Source: a virus
DNA length: 64,000 nucleotides
Strand: one strand, 5' to 3'
IMG/VR virus record: IMGVR_UViG_3300044796_000222
Span: 1-64,000 of that record
Made by a program: the position numbers and the translations under genes. Numbering within the stretch: the stretch's first letter is position 1; each line of letters starts with the position of its first letter. Shown one piece after another: positions 3,243 through 60,766 of the stretch. Under the pieces are notes generated by a model. That model saw nothing but the letters and a program-made list of their open reading frames with translations, was not told where the DNA came from and made no database searches.

Positions 3243-3550
3243 CCGCCTGCGTCTTCGTCGTTGCGTTGCAGGGGTCTGAGTTGCAGTTGCACGCGATGAA
3301 CGAGCCGGCGCGTCGTCTGCTTGGCGAGCATGGAGACGAGTTTCAGGTGGAGTTGTGGGACTTGCGCAACACGTTCCACGACCATGTCATATCGAACGAT
3401 GACGGGTTGAGCTTCAGGGAGCGTGAGCCGCTGCCATACGGCGTCTTGCCGCTGTCATTGGTGCGCCGGATGATCGAGGACGCGCTGTCTGAACGGTTCC
3501 CAGACCGTGAGATTTTGTGCCTGAACCGCCGGTCTTGCTGCCGGACCTGA
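3239..3550 (+). CDS. Hypothetical protein
   Basis: GTGA overlap. Confidence 0.55.
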   Translation: MTACVFVVALQGSELQLHAMNEPARRLLGEHGDEFQVELWDLRNTFHDHVISNDDGLSFREREPLPYGVLPLSLVRRMIEDALSERFPDREILCLNRRSCCRT

Positions 3551-3623
3551 CGCTGCCGGTCGACGATCCGCTGCCGCGCTAGACTTCACCCGCACCACCC
3601 GACGCGAATCGAGGTGCGGGCAA

Positions 3624-3663
3624 GACGGGGACGCCTCCGATGTTCGGTGGCATCGTCGTTTTT
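3624..3663 (+). terminator. Possible intrinsic terminator
   Basis: Imperfect GC hairpin (GCC-T-CCGA tgt TCGG-T-GGC core) followed by TTTTT. Confidence 0.4.
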
Positions 3664-15572: not shown

Positions 15573-15940
15573 CATGCCTATCCGGTTCCGTGACAATGAC
15601 ACACACACATCACTGTGCTACTGTAACTATAGGAGCTTGCCGAATGACCACCCCCGAGACCGCTGCCCTGCGTGCTCTGATACCGACATACAATCACGCC
15701 GACCCGCCATGCTGCTGTGGGCAACCCAAGAGTGACCACGATCTTGGAAAGATCGCCTTCGGAAATGACTGCCCTGGCTTTTGCGTCGAGGGTCCTCTTA
15801 CCCATGTGCTGGTTCCGATCGCGTTGCTCGCCGCAGTGATCGACCTCGCCGATGCCCAACAGGCATCACCGTCGACCTCATAACGGTTACAGTGCCACTG
15901 CGGTGTAGGTGTCGGATTGTCACGCAACCGGATAGGCATT
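15573..15940. mobile_element. 368-bp non-autonomous TIR cassette (cassette A)
   Basis: 55-bp imperfect TIRs (43/55; 23/24 over ATGCCTATCCGGTTSCGTGACAAT); perfect 8-bp flanking direct repeat CACAAAAC at 15565-15572 and 15941-15948. Confidence 0.85.
15644..15883 (+). CDS. 79-aa Cys-rich cargo protein of cassette A
   Basis: AGGAG RBS; fills the space between the TIRs; CCCG...H...CPGF motif. Confidence 0.6.
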   Translation: MTTPETAALRALIPTYNHADPPCCCGQPKSDHDLGKIAFGNDCPGFCVEGPLTHVLVPIALLAAVIDLADAQQASPSTS

Positions 15941-57257: not shown

Positions 57258-57508
57258 TGACTTGCGCCACCATATGTCGAGCATGCCACCAAATGACGCC
57301 GGCCGTTTCGCCGGTCATCCTGGCATTCGCGCCCGTCTACACCAAAACGTGCGCCAAGTGCCAGGGCATCAACGCGACGAATCGGATGCCGGAAGGCTCA
57401 GTCGTCGATTGGGGATACGAGGCAGAGGCTAAGCCGACGCCCGGAACCGTCAATCACACGACCGTCGACGGCAAAGGCGCTGTCGCGAGGCTGCGGAGGA
57501 AGCGATGA
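57257..57508 (+). CDS. Hypothetical zinc-finger protein
   Basis: CRAC...CAKC. Confidence 0.55.
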   Translation: MTCATICRACHQMTPAVSPVILAFAPVYTKTCAKCQGINATNRMPEGSVVDWGYEAEAKPTPGTVNHTTVDGKGAVARLRRKR

Positions 57509-57726
57509 CCGACATCGAGAAACTCATCGAACTCATCATGGCGCGCACAACCACCGTCGCGTGGGTCGGTTTCGCGCGAGACTTCAACTACTTCGTCATC
57601 CTCTACGGGCGAGCCGTCAGCGACGACGACGTTGCCGTAGCGAAGCGCTGCGTCTGCGACGTCTATCCGAAAGCCATCAACCTGGACGTGATTCGCGCTC
57701 GCGTGAGGTTGGAGGACCTGTCATGA
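57505..57726 (+). CDS. Hypothetical protein
   Basis: GGAGG RBS. Confidence 0.6.
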   Translation: MTDIEKLIELIMARTTTVAWVGFARDFNYFVILYGRAVSDDDVAVAKRCVCDVYPKAINLDVIRARVRLEDLS

Positions 57727-57932
57727 CCGACGAAGAAATCAAGACGCACAACGACGCAGTAGAAGCCGAATACGCAACGATGCTCACAACGCTGCCTGCC
57801 GAGGAGCGGCGCTTTGCGTTCGATCTTGCGCGCGAACTCTTACTCAAGAGCGAATACGCCTCGCCGGTTGACTCGTTGCGCAAAGCGACGTGGTTCCACT
57901 CCGAGGCGAAAAGGCGCGGGCTACTGATATGA
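57723..57932 (+). CDS. Hypothetical protein
   Basis: GGAGG RBS; ATGA overlap. Confidence 0.6.
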   Translation: MTDEEIKTHNDAVEAEYATMLTTLPAEERRFAFDLARELLLKSEYASPVDSLRKATWFHSEAKRRGLLI

Positions 57933-58039
57933 TCGCCGTCGTATGCGGCTCCCGCGACTCCCGAGATCGCGACGGCGTCTTCGCTGTGCTCGATCGCATC
58001 CACGCCGAGACGCCGATTACGCCTTGCCTATCCGGTTGA
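57929..58039 (+). pseudogene. SLOG (DUF2493/YspA-like) gene truncated by cassette B
   Basis: MIAVVCGSRDSRDRDGVFAVLDRIHAETPIT runs into the TIR and stops. Confidence 0.65.
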
Positions 58040-58049
58040 CTCCCTCCCC

Positions 58050-58079
58050 TTGACACCTTCCCTACTTCTGGTGTACGCA
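58050..58079 (+). promoter_or_regulatory. tnpB promoter (probably leaderless)
   Basis: TTGACA-N18-TACGCA; ATG at 58086, no SD. Confidence 0.45.
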
Positions 58080-58085
58080 TTCAAC

Positions 58086-59447
58086 ATGTCCGCTGAGAAG
58101 ACCCACCAGCGAATTGTTCGGGAATTAGACCCAAACAACGAGGTGCTGACGTCTTTTCGCAAATACGCGGGAACCAAAAGGCTTGTCTACAACTTGTACT
58201 TGGAGGCCGCCCAGACGCTCTTTCACTCGTGCCAAGACAAGGTACGCTTCCTCAAGAAGAACGACTTCAAGCGGGAGTTCACTGCGCGTAGGCACTCAGA
58301 CTTCCCTTGGATGGACGAAATCCCATCCAATCTCATCGAACTTGCTATCGATGACGCCGATCGTGCCTATCAAAACTTCTACGCCGCTCGCAAGAAGGCT
58401 AGGAAGGTGGGACTCCCTCGTCGAAAGAAGAAAGGCAACGCACGAGACTCCTTCCGCTTCCGAAACGAGCTAGTCAAACTTCTAGACCGTCGGCATATAC
58501 ACGTCTCCAAGATCGGCCGGGTCAGACTCAAAGAGCCCCTTCGCTTCATCAAAGACCAACGGGTCGTAAGCCTCACAGTCTATCGCGAAGCCGATCGCTG
58601 GTTCGGATCGTTTCTGGTCGAAGAACCCTTGGCCACACCTGTTCCGCCTACTAATCCGATCGTGGGAGTAGACCTCGGGGTCCTCACGTTCGCGACCGTT
58701 TCGGACGGTTTCAGCTACCAAAGAGTCGCTCACACCAACGCTCTCAAGTCCTCATTGAAGCGTCTCCAACGTCTTAGTCGTCAACAGTCACGAAAGGAAA
58801 GGGGCTCAAACAGCAAGAAGAAAGCCACCATGAAGCTCGCCCGACAGCATAGGCGAGTGAAGAATATCCGAGAGACGCAGATCCACAAGCTCACCACGAA
58901 GCTGGCGAAAACCAAGTCAGTCGTCGTGATCGAGGACCTCAACGTCTCTGGGATGGTGAAGAACAAGAACCTAGCGCGATCCGTCATGGATCAAGGGTTC
59001 GGGATGGTCCGACGCCAGTTGGAGTACAAGACCAAGAAGTTCGGGTCTCGCCTCCTCGTGGTCGATCGGTTTTTCCCGTCCTCGAAGCTGTGCTCTGTGT
59101 GCGGGTTCAAGTGCGAGAAGATGCCTCTTAGTGTGAGGCGTTGGAGTTGCGTCAAGTGCGGCGCAACCCACGATAGGGACGAGAACGCCTCGGAGAACCT
59201 GAGGCAAGAAGGCCAACGCATGTTGGCTAACGATTTAGTACCCCAAATGCTGGGGGAATTTACGCCTGAGGAGATCCCTCTGGGGGTGGACGGCACGATG
59301 ATGGGGTGCACTGGAAGCACCCCAGAGGCGTCTACTGCCCATGGGTCGTTGAACCAGGAAGCGGGCTCAACGTGTGGGAAGTCCTCACGTACGGTAAGTC
59401 CCGTCAATGCCGGAGGCTCCCCACTCGTGGGGGAGCCTACCGGATAG
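58086..59447 (+). CDS. tnpB: RNA-guided endonuclease TnpB (IS200/IS605/IS607 type)
   Basis: RuvC motifs GVDLG, IEDL, DRDENA intact; CSVC/CVKC zinc finger; FPSSKLC. Confidence 0.95.
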   Translation: MSAEKTHQRIVRELDPNNEVLTSFRKYAGTKRLVYNLYLEAAQTLFHSCQDKVRFLKKNDFKREFTARRHSDFPWMDEIPSNLIELAIDDADRAYQNFYAARKKARKVGLPRRKKKGNARDSFRFRNELVKLLDRRHIHVSKIGRVRLKEPLRFIKDQRVVSLTVYREADRWFGSFLVEEPLATPVPPTNPIVGVDLGVLTFATVSDGFSYQRVAHTNALKSSLKRLQRLSRQQSRKERGSNSKKKATMKLARQHRRVKNIRETQIHKLTTKLAKTKSVVVIEDLNVSGMVKNKNLARSVMDQGFGMVRRQLEYKTKKFGSRLLVVDRFFPSSKLCSVCGFKCEKMPLSVRRWSCVKCGATHDRDENASENLRQEGQRMLANDLVPQMLGEFTPEEIPLGVDGTMMGCTGSTPEASTAHGSLNQEAGSTCGKSSRTVSPVNAGGSPLVGEPTG

Positions 59448-59450
59448 GCA
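59230..59450 (+). ncRNA. Putative omegaRNA overlapping the tnpB 3' end (limits approximate)
   Basis: The tail after RuvC-III reads GEFTPEE...SLNQEA, typical of omegaRNA-overlapping tnpB ends; hairpins at about 59370-59390 and 59410-59443. Confidence 0.55.
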
Positions 59451-59587
59451 TGGAAGACGCGTGCCGCTACATCGTCGCCTGTCGTCGAGACGGCGCCGCC
59501 CAGCAGGCCGAGTGCGTCCACGGCCGCTCCGACGGCGCGCTCGCTCTCGTCGCGAAGGCGCTGGCGGCGCTGGGTATTAGGGCTTGA
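59450..59587 (+). pseudogene. 3' remnant of a gene right of cassette B
   Basis: EDACRYIVACRRDG...LGIRA-stop; the only ATG comes from the TIR. Confidence 0.4.
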
Positions 59588-59641
59588 CGGGCGCCGCATC
59601 ATGCTCATGTTGACGCCTTCCATCGAAGGAGAGCCGAGAAG

Positions 59642-60766
59642 ATGATCGACAGGCTGTGCATCCAAAAGTTGCTCGACGAGCGCGGTTTCGACGAAGCGTT
59701 CCTCGTCTCCAACTACGGCATCAAGGCGCGCGTCGATCGCACGCACCCGAACCTCGTCCTGTTCAAATACGACCAGATCGCGTCGCCGATGGGCGAGAGA
59801 ATCGTACAGGAGTGTCGCGGTGTCATCCTCGACAAGTCCGACGGTTGGTCGGTCGTCTCGCGCGCCTTCGACAAATTTTTCAATCACGGTGAAGGCCATG
59901 CCGCACCGATCGATTGGTCCACGGCGGCGGTGCAAGAGAAGCTCGACGGGTCGCTCTGCGTGCTCTACGCCTACGACGGCAAGTGGCGCGTCGCGACCAC
60001 TGGCACGCCTGACGGCTTCGGCGACGTGAACGGATTCGGCATCACGTTCGCCGACTACTTTTGGAAGACGTTCAACGCGTGCGGAGGCCGTCTTCCGACG
60101 ATCGACTCGACCGGACGTCATCCATCGCAGTTCTTCTTCGAACTGTGCGGCAAGTTCAACCGCGTCGTCGTGAGGCATGAAACGGATCGCGTCGTCGCTC
60201 TCGGCGCCCGTCACGAAGGCAAAGAAGTCGGACCGCACTTCGCCGCTGACGCCACCGGCATCGCGCCCGTCCAATGCTTCTCACTCCAGTCGTTCGACGA
60301 CATCGCCGCGACCTTCGGCGCGCTCAGTCCGCTCGCACAAGAGGGCTACGTGGTCGTTGACGCCGACTTCCGACGCGTGAAGGTCAAGCATCCCGGTTAC
60401 GTCGCGCTTCATCACGCGAAGGACGGACTTGGTCCGAAGGCGTTTCTTCAGATCGCCCGCTCCGGCGAGACATCCGAAGTCCTGTCCGCCTTCCCAGAGT
60501 TCCGAGAGCACATGGAGCAGGTGAAGGCGAAACTCGACGCACTCATCGCCGAGACGGATGCCACCTACGCGGCGCATCGCCACCACGAAGTTCAGAAAGA
60601 CTTCGCGATCGCGATCAAGGATTCGCCTGGACGTGCAGCGATGTTCTCGATCCGATCTGGACGGCATCGCGACGCTCGGCACTACTACGCCGAGACGCAG
60701 ATCGATCCGTTGATGCGACTGCTTGGCCTGAAGGCCGAACAGCAGGCCGAAGGAGACGCGACATGA
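59642..60766 (+). CDS. RNA ligase, T4 Rnl1-like
   Basis: ECRGVIL; FDKFFN; EKLDGS; FFEL; EGYVV; RVKVK. Confidence 0.9.
   Translation: MIDRLCIQKLLDERGFDEAFLVSNYGIKARVDRTHPNLVLFKYDQIASPMGERIVQECRGVILDKSDGWSVVSRAFDKFFNHGEGHAAPIDWSTAAVQEKLDGSLCVLYAYDGKWRVATTGTPDGFGDVNGFGITFADYFWKTFNACGGRLPTIDSTGRHPSQFFFELCGKFNRVVVRHETDRVVALGARHEGKEVGPHFAADATGIAPVQCFSLQSFDDIAATFGALSPLAQEGYVVVDADFRRVKVKHPGYVALHHAKDGLGPKAFLQIARSGETSEVLSAFPEFREHMEQVKAKLDALIAETDATYAAHRHHEVQKDFAIAIKDSPGRAAMFSIRSGRHRDARHYYAETQIDPLMRLLGLKAEQQAEGDAT

What the first reader, a model, noticed from the sequence alone, without database searches (positions are those of the whole stretch)
58015..59460. Intact TnpB packaged between TIRs instead of IS200/605/607 ends, implying a fixed internal guide
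Seen: all three RuvC acidic residues and the zinc finger are intact, there is no tnpA, and the stop codon TAG (59445-59447) lies inside the right TIR. The omegaRNA-like region appears to end near GGTAAGTCCCGTCAA (about 59407), leaving about 45 bp inside the element, folded as CCGG-AGGCTCCCC/GGGGAGCCT-A-CCGG. Known: in IS200/605 and IS607 the guide comes from DNA flanking the right end. Inference: here the guide would travel with the element, so this TnpB could be domesticated (anti-competitor or regulatory) or serve a DDE-type element. I found no match to the candidate guide elsewhere in the window.
Basis: partly seen in the sequence, partly recalled or inferred. Interest (0 to 1): 0.8.

Follow-up and report, generated by a model that had tools for sequence, protein, structure and literature searches.

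The report
TnpB riding an IS1595-type cassette
An intact RNA-guided nuclease gene (TnpB) in a phage sits between the inverted-repeat ends of a DDE (IS1595-family) transposon instead of its usual IS607 ends, but its guide RNA still appears to read its target from the DNA just outside the element, not from a fixed internal guide.

Summary
An intact 453-aa TnpB (58086-59447) lies between 23-nt inverted repeats (58022-44 / 59431-53), with no tnpA in the element or the 93-kb phage record.

The repeats are not chance, and they are not IS607 or IS605 ends. Their tip, CATGCCTATCCGGT, is the terminal repeat of an IS1595-family insertion sequence common in phage contigs. Autonomous copies encode DDE_Tnp_IS1595 transposases, and 14 of 20 inverted pairs have perfect 8-bp target duplications. 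A second, 368-bp cassette with the same ends and a perfect 8-bp duplication lies at 15573-15940. The tnpB cassette (58023-59452) has a 6/8 duplication (GATTACGC / GAAGACGC).

The protein itself belongs to the IS607-associated TnpB clade: 57 of 85 relatives have a serine tnpA upstream.

The "fixed internal guide" reading is not supported. In relatives the guide-RNA scaffold ends in a 4-nt tail that pairs with a 5' hairpin loop, and the tail covaries with the loop in 7 sequence classes. Here the loop is AATGC and the tail is GCAT, at the very tip of the right repeat. The scaffold therefore runs to 59453, and the guide starts in flanking DNA at 59454.

This is a new variant of a known kind.

The parts
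58015..58022 (.). Left copy of the putative 8-bp target-site duplication (GATTACGC)
   Evidence: 6/8 identical to 59453-59460 (chance of at least 6/8 is about 0.004). The 8-bp length was set beforehand by cassette A and by 14/20 related cassettes with perfect 8-bp duplications.
58023..58044 (+). Left terminal inverted repeat (CTTGCCTATCCGGTTGACTCCC), IS1595-family type
   Evidence: It matches the consensus of 136 ends from phage contigs (CATGCCTATCCGGTTnnnnCCCA) except at position 2.
58086..59447 (+). tnpB, 453 aa, catalytic residues and zinc finger intact
59241..59255 (+). 5' hairpin of the omegaRNA scaffold (CCCCA AATGC TGGGG). Loop 59246-50 is the pseudoknot partner. Followed by the conserved anchor ACGCCTGAGGAG at 59262-73.
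   Evidence: It is homologous to the CCGxx-AGTTC-xxCGG hairpin plus ACGCCTGTGGAG anchor of relatives.
59410..59443 (+). Terminal stem-loop of the scaffold. Its 3' arm is the inner part of the right TIR.
   Evidence: Relatives have a variable stem-loop at the same place, often over the tnpB stop codon.
59447..59453 (+). Scaffold tail GGCATGG, the homologue of GGAACGG in IS607 relatives. GCAT (59448-51) pairs with loop ATGC (59247-50).
   Evidence: The ISDra2 structure places the pseudoknot at -6 to -2 before the guide (PMC10097598).
59431..59452 (+). Right terminal inverted repeat, ending ...ACCGGATAGGCATG
59453..59460 (.). Right copy of the putative target-site duplication (GAAGACGC)
59454..59470 (+). 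Predicted guide (AAGACGCGTGCCGCTAC...), flanking phage DNA. The length is assumed from ISXfa1 and ISDra2 (16-17 nt).
   Evidence: Inference. It has no other close match in the 93-kb record.
57929..58021 (+). N-terminal fragment of the interrupted phage gene (YspA/SLOG-like, PF10686 positions 3-31)
59453..59587 (+). Downstream ORF fragment (EDACRY...GIRA*). It may be the C-terminal part of the same SLOG gene.
   Evidence: It has no Pfam hit and no homologues were found. The link to SLOG is my reading of the motif only.
15573..15940 (.). Second cassette with the same TIRs (368 bp, 79-aa ORF). Perfect 8-bp duplication CACAAAAC at 15565-72 and 15941-48.

Best explanation
The stretch 58023-59452 is a transposase-less cassette of an IS1595-family (DDE) insertion sequence. 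It resembles a 'mobile insertion cassette', and its cargo is a TnpB gene with its omegaRNA.

The TnpB descends from the IS607-associated clade, but in this lineage the serine-recombinase ends have been replaced by IS1595 terminal inverted repeats. The right repeat has been built into the 3' end of the omegaRNA scaffold. Its inner part forms the 3' arm of the last stem-loop. Its tip (GCAT) forms the pseudoknot with the 5' hairpin loop, which has changed from AGTTC to AATGC to match.

Transcription therefore runs through the repeat and takes the guide from the DNA beyond it: first the target-site duplication, then phage DNA, from 59454 on.

Shown:
- family identity of the TIRs;
- 8-bp duplications in the family;
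- clade of the TnpB;
- loop-tail covariation;
- positions of element ends in multi-copy relatives.

Inferred:
- that the RNA is made and processed this way;
- that an IS1595 transposase supplied in trans moves the cassette;
- that TnpB cuts cassette-free copies of the locus, for example in co-infecting phages, so that the cassette is copied back in by recombination.
For: 1. TIR family.
- The 14-mer CATGCCTATCCGGT hits more than 118 phage contigs.
- 20 inverted pairs lie 250-2300 bp apart, and 14 of them have perfect 8-bp flanking duplications.
- Five members of about 1.5-2.1 kb encode DDE_Tnp_IS1595 plus Zn_ribbon_IS1595 proteins, E 1e-32 to 1e-37. About 20 contigs carry the transposase.
- IS1595-family elements are known to make 8-bp repeats (PMC12561309).

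2. The same record holds a second cassette with a perfect 8-bp duplication. The tnpB cassette has 6/8.

3. 57 of 85 TnpB relatives have an IS607-type serine tnpA directly upstream. The best NCBIfam hit is IS607_TnpB.

4. In multi-copy relatives the right end falls exactly 2 nt after a 4-nt tail: GAAC-GG or TAGC-AG.

5. The tail is complementary to the 5' hairpin loop in 7 loop classes. The own-loop complement is present in 22/22 loci, against 10/132 for other classes' complements. The window has loop AATGC and tail GCAT-GG at 59448-53.

6. Of 80 relatives with a predicted right end, only the window (14/16) and more weakly L033 (11/16) carry an inverted copy of the right-end tail upstream of tnpB. 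L033 has the same loop and tail pair.

7. The ISDra2 cryo-EM structure puts the pseudoknot at -6 to -2 relative to the guide. For ISXfa1 (41% identical TnpB), RNA-seq shows the guide starting at the element boundary.
Against: - No RNA data.
- The tnpB cassette is a single copy. Its duplication is imperfect (6/8), and the left TIR differs from consensus at position 2, so it may no longer be mobile.
- None of the other 20 cassettes carries a TnpB, and none of 85 TnpB loci carries an IS1595 transposase. The association therefore rests on this element plus the diverged L033.
- Under the 8-bp duplication model the two halves of the interrupted SLOG-like gene do not join in frame, and the middle of the domain is missing. 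The insertion history is not simple.
- For single-copy loci the tail position was located through its complementarity to the loop. That part of the test is partly circular. The multi-copy families and the cross-class control are not.
Confidence: 0.74

Rival explanations
1. One reading: the scaffold ends near 59407 and the 45 nt up to the right repeat are a fixed guide that travels with the element, making this a domesticated or regulatory TnpB.
For: The tnpB ORF and its 3' region lie wholly inside the repeats, and there is no tnpA.
Against: - The 45 nt fold into a 13-bp stem, which is not guide-like.
- Every relative has a stem-loop plus tail at this place before the element end.
- Pseudoknot covariation puts the last scaffold nucleotides at 59447-53.
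- The candidate has no target in the record.
- The catalytic residues are intact, unlike the known domesticated TldR proteins.
Confidence: 0.03
2. An ordinary non-autonomous IS607 element. On this view the inverted repeats are the subterminal TnpA-binding repeats that IS607-family elements are known to have.
For: - IS607-family ends carry imperfect inverted repeats near the termini (PMC6188088).
- Relatives with defined ends show 12-16 nt subterminal repeats.
- The TnpB is of the IS607-associated clade.
Against: - The repeat is terminal, 23 nt long, and its tip is identical to the TIR of more than 100 IS1595-type ends.
- There is no GG on the top strand at the left junction.
- Flanking 8-bp repeats are present, whereas IS607 makes none.
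- 78 of 80 relatives lack an inverted copy of the right-end tail.
Confidence: 0.04
3. Nested elements: an IS607-derived TnpB element with its own ends inserted by chance into a pre-existing IS1595 miniature element. The repeats would then have nothing to do with TnpB function.
For: - Cassettes of this family carry many unrelated cargoes, such as Mom and RNA ligase.
- Only one tnpB cassette was found.
Against: - The only GCAT-NG tail complementary to the loop lies at the tip of the right repeat, and the last stem uses the repeat as one arm.
- L033, only 39% identical, has the same loop and tail with diverged repeats of the same type.
- P0005, P0006 and P0008 keep the Met/Cys codon that encodes the ATGC loop, and all end in Gly-stop as expected if the ORF runs into CCGGATAG. 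This last point is inference from protein sequence.
Confidence: 0.08
4. A dead relic: the cassette and its guide are no longer functional, and the ORF is intact only by recency.
For: - Imperfect duplication and a left-TIR mismatch.
- No promoter-like site was found.
- No transposase in the record.
- The host gene is already degraded.
Against: - The 453-codon ORF is open, with every catalytic and zinc residue intact.
- The scaffold fold scores z = -3.6, and the pseudoknot pairing is intact.
Confidence: 0.1

Closest known systems
DDE-transposase-associated TnpB branches and solo TnpBs mobilised in trans (Altae-Tran et al. 2023, PNAS, PMC10691335)
   Same: - TnpB lies between inverted terminal repeats of a DDE element.
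- The tnpB 3' end is within 250 bp of the element end.
- Solo TnpBs lie between ends like those of transposase-bearing copies.
   Different: - The main text names only IS630 among the DDE partners. IS1595 could not be checked because no supplement is held.
- Here the TnpB sits inside the serine-recombinase (IS607) clade and in a phage.
- The loop-tail covariation shows how the scaffold was refitted to the new end.
Fanzor1/Fanzor2 in eukaryotic TIR/TSD transposons (Yoon et al. 2023, bioRxiv 10.1101/2023.08.09.552727 / NAR)
   Same: - An IS607-derived nuclease captured by a cut-and-paste element with TIRs and TSDs.
- The TIR (and TSD) forms part of the stem-loop next to the guide.
- The guide comes from flanking DNA.
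   Different: Here the setting is prokaryotic, in a phage, with an IS1595-type partner. The TnpB has the ordinary active-site layout.
IS607 family, e.g. ISXfa1 (TnpB 41% identical)
   Same: - Same TnpB clade.
- Same omegaRNA plan: 5' hairpin, ACGCCTGTGGAG anchor, AAGCAGGAAG motif, terminal stem-loop, tail.
- The guide starts at the element boundary.
   Different: - No serine tnpA and no GG crossover dinucleotide at the left junction.
- Terminal rather than subterminal repeats.
- Flanking 8-bp repeats.
- Tail GGCATGG instead of GGAACGG.
IS1595 family and transposase-less cassettes between IS ends. The 'mobile insertion cassette' concept (MIC231 of IS231) is from my own knowledge.
   Same: - TIRs identical to autonomous copies.
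- 8-bp duplications.
- Cargo genes without a transposase.
   Different: The cargo is an RNA-guided nuclease whose RNA is fused to the right TIR. The hosts are phages.
TldR, nuclease-dead TnpB-derived repressors with fixed guides (Wiegand et al., bioRxiv 10.1101/2023.11.30.569447; listed, not read here)
   Different: Here the nuclease residues are intact, transposon ends are present, and the guide position is at the element boundary. The description of TldR rests on my own knowledge.

Membership tests
TnpB (RNA-guided nuclease, OrfB_IS605 / Cas12f1-like TNB) | RuvC D-E-D triad and CxxC...CxxC zinc finger | tested here: met
   D196, E283, D365 and C336/C339/C355/C358 are invariant columns. Pfam and NCBIfam hits. 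ISDra2 TnpB structures match at E 1e-57.
TnpB (RNA-guided nuclease, OrfB_IS605 / Cas12f1-like TNB) | omegaRNA overlapping the 3' end of the gene, with a pseudoknot just 5' of the guide | tested here: met
   Conserved 5' hairpin and anchor, terminal stem-loop, and a tail complementary to the loop. This rests on sequence and covariation only; there are no RNA data.
IS607 family | Serine-recombinase tnpA in the element | tested here: not met
   Only 64 bp separate the left end from the tnpB start. No Resolvase hit in the 93-kb record.
IS607 family | Same crossover dinucleotide (usually GG) at both junctions and no target duplication | tested here: not met
   The right end is ...CATG|G. The left junction is ...TTACGC|CTTGCC, with no GG on the top strand between 57976 and 58033. 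8-bp flanking repeats match 6/8.
IS607 family | TnpB of the serine-recombinase-associated clade | tested here: met
   57 of 85 relatives have a serine tnpA upstream. IS607_TnpB is the best NCBIfam model, though below its cut-off.
IS200/IS605 (including tnpB-only IS1341 type) | Y1 TnpA in the record | tested here: not met
   No Y1_Tnp hit in the record.
IS200/IS605 (including tnpB-only IS1341 type) | Asymmetric ends with subterminal hairpins, insertion 3' of a TTAC-like motif, no duplication | tested here: not met
   The ends are symmetric. The TCAA at 59404 is part of GTCAA; TTGAC occurs twice in the left end (my reading). Conserved scaffold features continue 46 nt beyond 59407.
IS1595 family, non-autonomous derivative | Terminal inverted repeats of the same sequence as transposase-bearing copies | tested here: met
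   CATGCCTATCCGGT(T) forms the tip of both ends, with one mismatch on the left. Copies with DDE_Tnp_IS1595 transposases carry the same tips.
IS1595 family, non-autonomous derivative | 8-bp target-site duplication | tested here: inconclusive
   6/8 for the tnpB cassette (p about 0.004). 8/8 for cassette A and for 14 of 20 related pairs.
IS1595 family, non-autonomous derivative | A matching transposase available in trans | not testable with these tools
   None in the phage record, which is 87% complete. The host genome is unknown.
TldR-type domesticated TnpB with a fixed guide | Inactivated RuvC site, loss of transposon ends, guide no longer at an element boundary | tested here: not met
   Catalytic residues are intact, both TIRs are present, and the tail is at the TIR tip.

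The most novel reading that the evidence does not exclude
A lineage of IS607-clade TnpB (this phage copy, L033, and probably P0005, P0006 and P0008) has switched partner to an IS1595-type DDE transposon and re-tailored its guide RNA to the new end. The transposon's terminal repeat now supplies the last stem and the pseudoknot strand, so the guide is read across the repeat tip and begins with the target-site duplication. This would be a prokaryotic, phage-borne counterpart of Fanzor capture by TIR transposons. It would also be a natural example of a scaffold pseudoknot being rewritten by compensatory change.
Probability: 0.55. Interest if true: 0.65.

Novelty: new variant of a known kind. Interest (0 to 1): 0.58.

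Why it matters
- It shows at nucleotide level how an RNA-guided nuclease can change transposon partner. The guide-RNA scaffold absorbs the new element's terminal repeat, and the pseudoknot partner mutates to match.
- This is the step thought to underlie the spread of TnpB into eukaryotic TIR transposons (Fanzor). Here it is seen in a phage.
- It suggests that the 4-nt pseudoknot of this TnpB clade can be reprogrammed, which is useful for engineering.
- It uncovers a widespread family of IS1595-type cassettes that shuttle accessory genes (Mom, RNA ligase, small ORFs, TnpB) between phages.
- For a cut-and-paste element with loose target choice, it raises the open question of how the TAM requirement is met.

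Tried and rejected
Searches that led nowhere:
- Rfam scan of 57500-60000: no hit.
- blastn of the region against phages: no match.
- TnpB protein against viral contigs: no close relative.
- Genome-contig scan: only 30-34% relatives.
- First metagenome scan: nothing.
- The genome search 'relatives' is not available for a virus record.

Search for an empty site in related phages:
- Via the RNA ligase neighbour: relatives are only 52% identical and not syntenic.
- A degenerate pattern for the left-flank peptide: no hit.
- Homologues of the right-flank ORF: none.

Boundary models I considered and dropped:
- A host palindrome split at CCGG.
- A GG 58034/35 x GG 59447/48 IS607-type crossover. This was prompted by a 1.7-bit better SLOG score.
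- An AGACGC direct repeat as crossover, with the right end at 59459.
All three fell once the pseudoknot register and the IS1595 TIR family were found.

Other negatives:
- A pattern for AATGC-loop scaffolds in viral contigs: no hit.
- No sigma-70-like promoter or intrinsic terminator in 57900-59700.

Full report
**What is there.**
The window is part of a 93-kb IMG/VR phage record with about 62% G+C. ORF 58086-59447 encodes a 453-aa TnpB with OrfB_IS605, TNB and HTH domains. In an alignment with ten relatives, the RuvC residues D196, E283, D365 and the four zinc-finger cysteines fall in invariant columns. The protein aligns to the solved ISDra2 TnpB at E 1e-57.

A 23-nt inverted repeat, 20/23 complementary, lies at 58022-44 and 59431-53. 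It was not reached by any of 300 shuffles. The stop codon sits in the right arm. A 13-bp stem (59410-22 with 59430-43) precedes it. The record has no serine recombinase, no Y1 transposase and only this one TnpB.

**Which TnpB.**
The best NCBIfam model is IS607_TnpB. The best annotated plasmid relatives (37-42% identity) sit directly downstream of IS607-family serine transposases. One of them is ISXfa1, which has been studied experimentally. Of 85 relatives with DNA in hand, 57 have a serine tnpA just upstream. The protein therefore belongs to the IS607-associated clade.

**Where the scaffold ends.**
The relatives share one omegaRNA plan:
- a 5-bp hairpin with a 5-nt loop, mostly AGTTC;
- the anchor ACGCCTGTGGAG;
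- the motif AAGCAGGAAG;
- a variable stem-loop near the stop codon;
- the tail GGAACGG.

Families present in several contexts show that sequence identity stops exactly after this tail: GAAC-GG in most, TAGC-AG in one family. The four tail bases are the reverse complement of loop bases 2-5, and they change together:

| Loop | Tail |
|---|---|
| AGTTC | GAAC |
| GGCTA | TAGC |
| AGAGC | GCTC |
| GGCTC | GAGC |
| GGTCA | TGAC |
| GGGCA | TGCC |
| AATGC | GCAT |

In a cross test, the complement of a locus's own loop followed by NG was present in 22 of 22 loci. Complements of other classes were present in 10 of 132. This agrees with the ISDra2 structure, where nucleotides -6 to -2 before the guide form the pseudoknot (PMC10097598).

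In the window the hairpin is CCCCA-AATGC-TGGGG (59241-55) and the anchor is at 59262-73. The only matching tail is G-GCAT-GG at 59447-53. By homology the scaffold runs to 59453 and the guide starts at 59454, in flanking DNA. For ISXfa1, RNA sequencing showed the same arrangement.

**What the repeats are.**
Among 80 relatives with a predicted right end, only the window (14/16) and more weakly L033 (11/16) have an inverted copy of the right-end tail upstream of tnpB. The repeats are thus not a clade feature. Autonomous IS607 relatives have only 12-16-nt subterminal repeats, as the literature describes (PMC6188088).

The core TGCCTATCCGGT occurs four times in the record. The second inverted pair bounds a 368-bp cassette at 15573-15940, which has a perfect 8-bp duplication, CACAAAAC. 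I found the four copies myself. A first-stage note (e1-6034508) had seen them too, and it led me to read the flanking repeat as 8 bp rather than 7.

- Twenty inverted pairs lie 250-2300 bp apart, and 14 have perfect 8-bp duplications.
- Members of about 1.5-2.1 kb encode proteins with DDE_Tnp_IS1595 and Zn_ribbon_IS1595 domains.
- About 20 contigs carry this transposase.
- Shorter members carry other cargo, such as a Mom-family protein and an RNA ligase.

IS1595-family elements make 8-bp repeats (PMC12561309). The tnpB cassette, 58023-59452, has GATTACGC / GAAGACGC, a 6/8 match with chance about 0.004. It is therefore a transposase-less IS1595-type cassette whose cargo is TnpB.

**How the two fit together.**
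The right repeat is also scaffold. Its inner part is the 3' arm of the last stem, and its tip GCAT is the pseudoknot strand. The loop has the matching AATGC instead of the clade's usual AGTTC.

L033 has a TnpB only 39% identical, in AT-rich DNA, without tnpA. It has the same loop, the tail GCAT-TG and diverged repeats of the same type. Its right-end tip matches the consensus in 11 of 15 positions by my hand count on the sequence.

The closest proteins keep PQM, PRM or PEC at the loop position. These codons spell ATGC. P0005, P0006 and P0008 also end in Gly-stop, as expected if the ORF runs into CCGGATAG. This is inference from protein sequence only.

These points argue for a standing association with compensatory change, not a chance nesting.

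**Likely working.**
This part is inference. An IS1595 transposase supplied in trans would move the cassette. TnpB, loaded with an RNA whose guide is the duplication plus the right flank, would cut copies of the locus that lack the cassette. Such copies could be in co-infecting phages, and recombination would then copy the cassette in. How a TAM is provided at loosely chosen DDE insertion sites is open. For IS607, selection of TAM-bearing sites after promiscuous insertion has been proposed.

**Unexplained.**
- The cassette interrupts a YspA/SLOG-like gene, of which only profile positions 3-31 are recognisable.
- The downstream ORF fragment has no Pfam hit and no homologues.
- Under the 8-bp duplication model the two coding frames do not join.
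- The left repeat has one mismatch to consensus.

The copy may therefore be old, or a deletion may have followed the insertion.

**Comparison with what is known.**
TnpBs linked to DDE transposases, with inverted terminal repeats and solo copies mobilised in trans, have been reported (PMC10691335). So have Fanzors in TIR/TSD transposons with the repeat inside the scaffold. No paper in the library links TnpB functionally with IS1595: a search for the two terms found nine papers, none about such a link judging by title and abstract.

I rate this a new variant of a known kind.

**Limits.**
- There are no RNA data and no DNA for the three closest relatives.
- The tnpB cassette is a single copy.

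Noticed in passing
window 15573-15940: A second IS1595-type cassette of 368 bp, with TIRs of about 28 nt and a perfect 8-bp duplication CACAAAAC. It carries a 79-aa Cys-rich ORF (about 15645-15884). It sits between a stop codon and a terminator-like hairpin.
   Followed up: partly
L110, L131, L151, L158, L216 (autonomous); L115-L211 (short cassettes): A widespread phage-borne IS1595-family element with tips CATGCCTATCCGGTT. Many transposase-less derivatives carry unrelated cargo (Mom-family protein in L185, RNA ligase in L162, small ORFs). Several duplications look like GTTnnAAC.
   Followed up: partly
L095 about 1440-1610 and L068 about 3530-3640: In two TnpB relatives the last 25-32 nt of the omegaRNA (ending ...TGACAG) are repeated 2-3 times at a period of about 65-70 nt, with different sequence between the copies. 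This looks like a mini CRISPR-like array downstream of tnpB, possibly a transposon-to-CRISPR intermediate.
   Followed up: no
L017 2127-2480: In a Geoalkalibacter plasmid, the gene upstream of a related tnpB is annotated as a MerR regulator. It is in fact the N-terminal DNA-binding part of an IS607 TnpA (66% identical over residues 1-85), so the transposase is truncated.
   Followed up: no
window 57929-58036 and 59453-59587: The interrupted phage gene matches only the first half of the YspA/SLOG profile. Its two fragments are out of frame under the duplication model, which suggests a further deletion or an already decayed gene.
   Followed up: partly
window 59585-59645: An alternative frame through the right flank stays open to a TGA that overlaps the ATG of the RNA-ligase gene (ATGA at 59642-45). 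Its composition looks non-coding.
   Followed up: no
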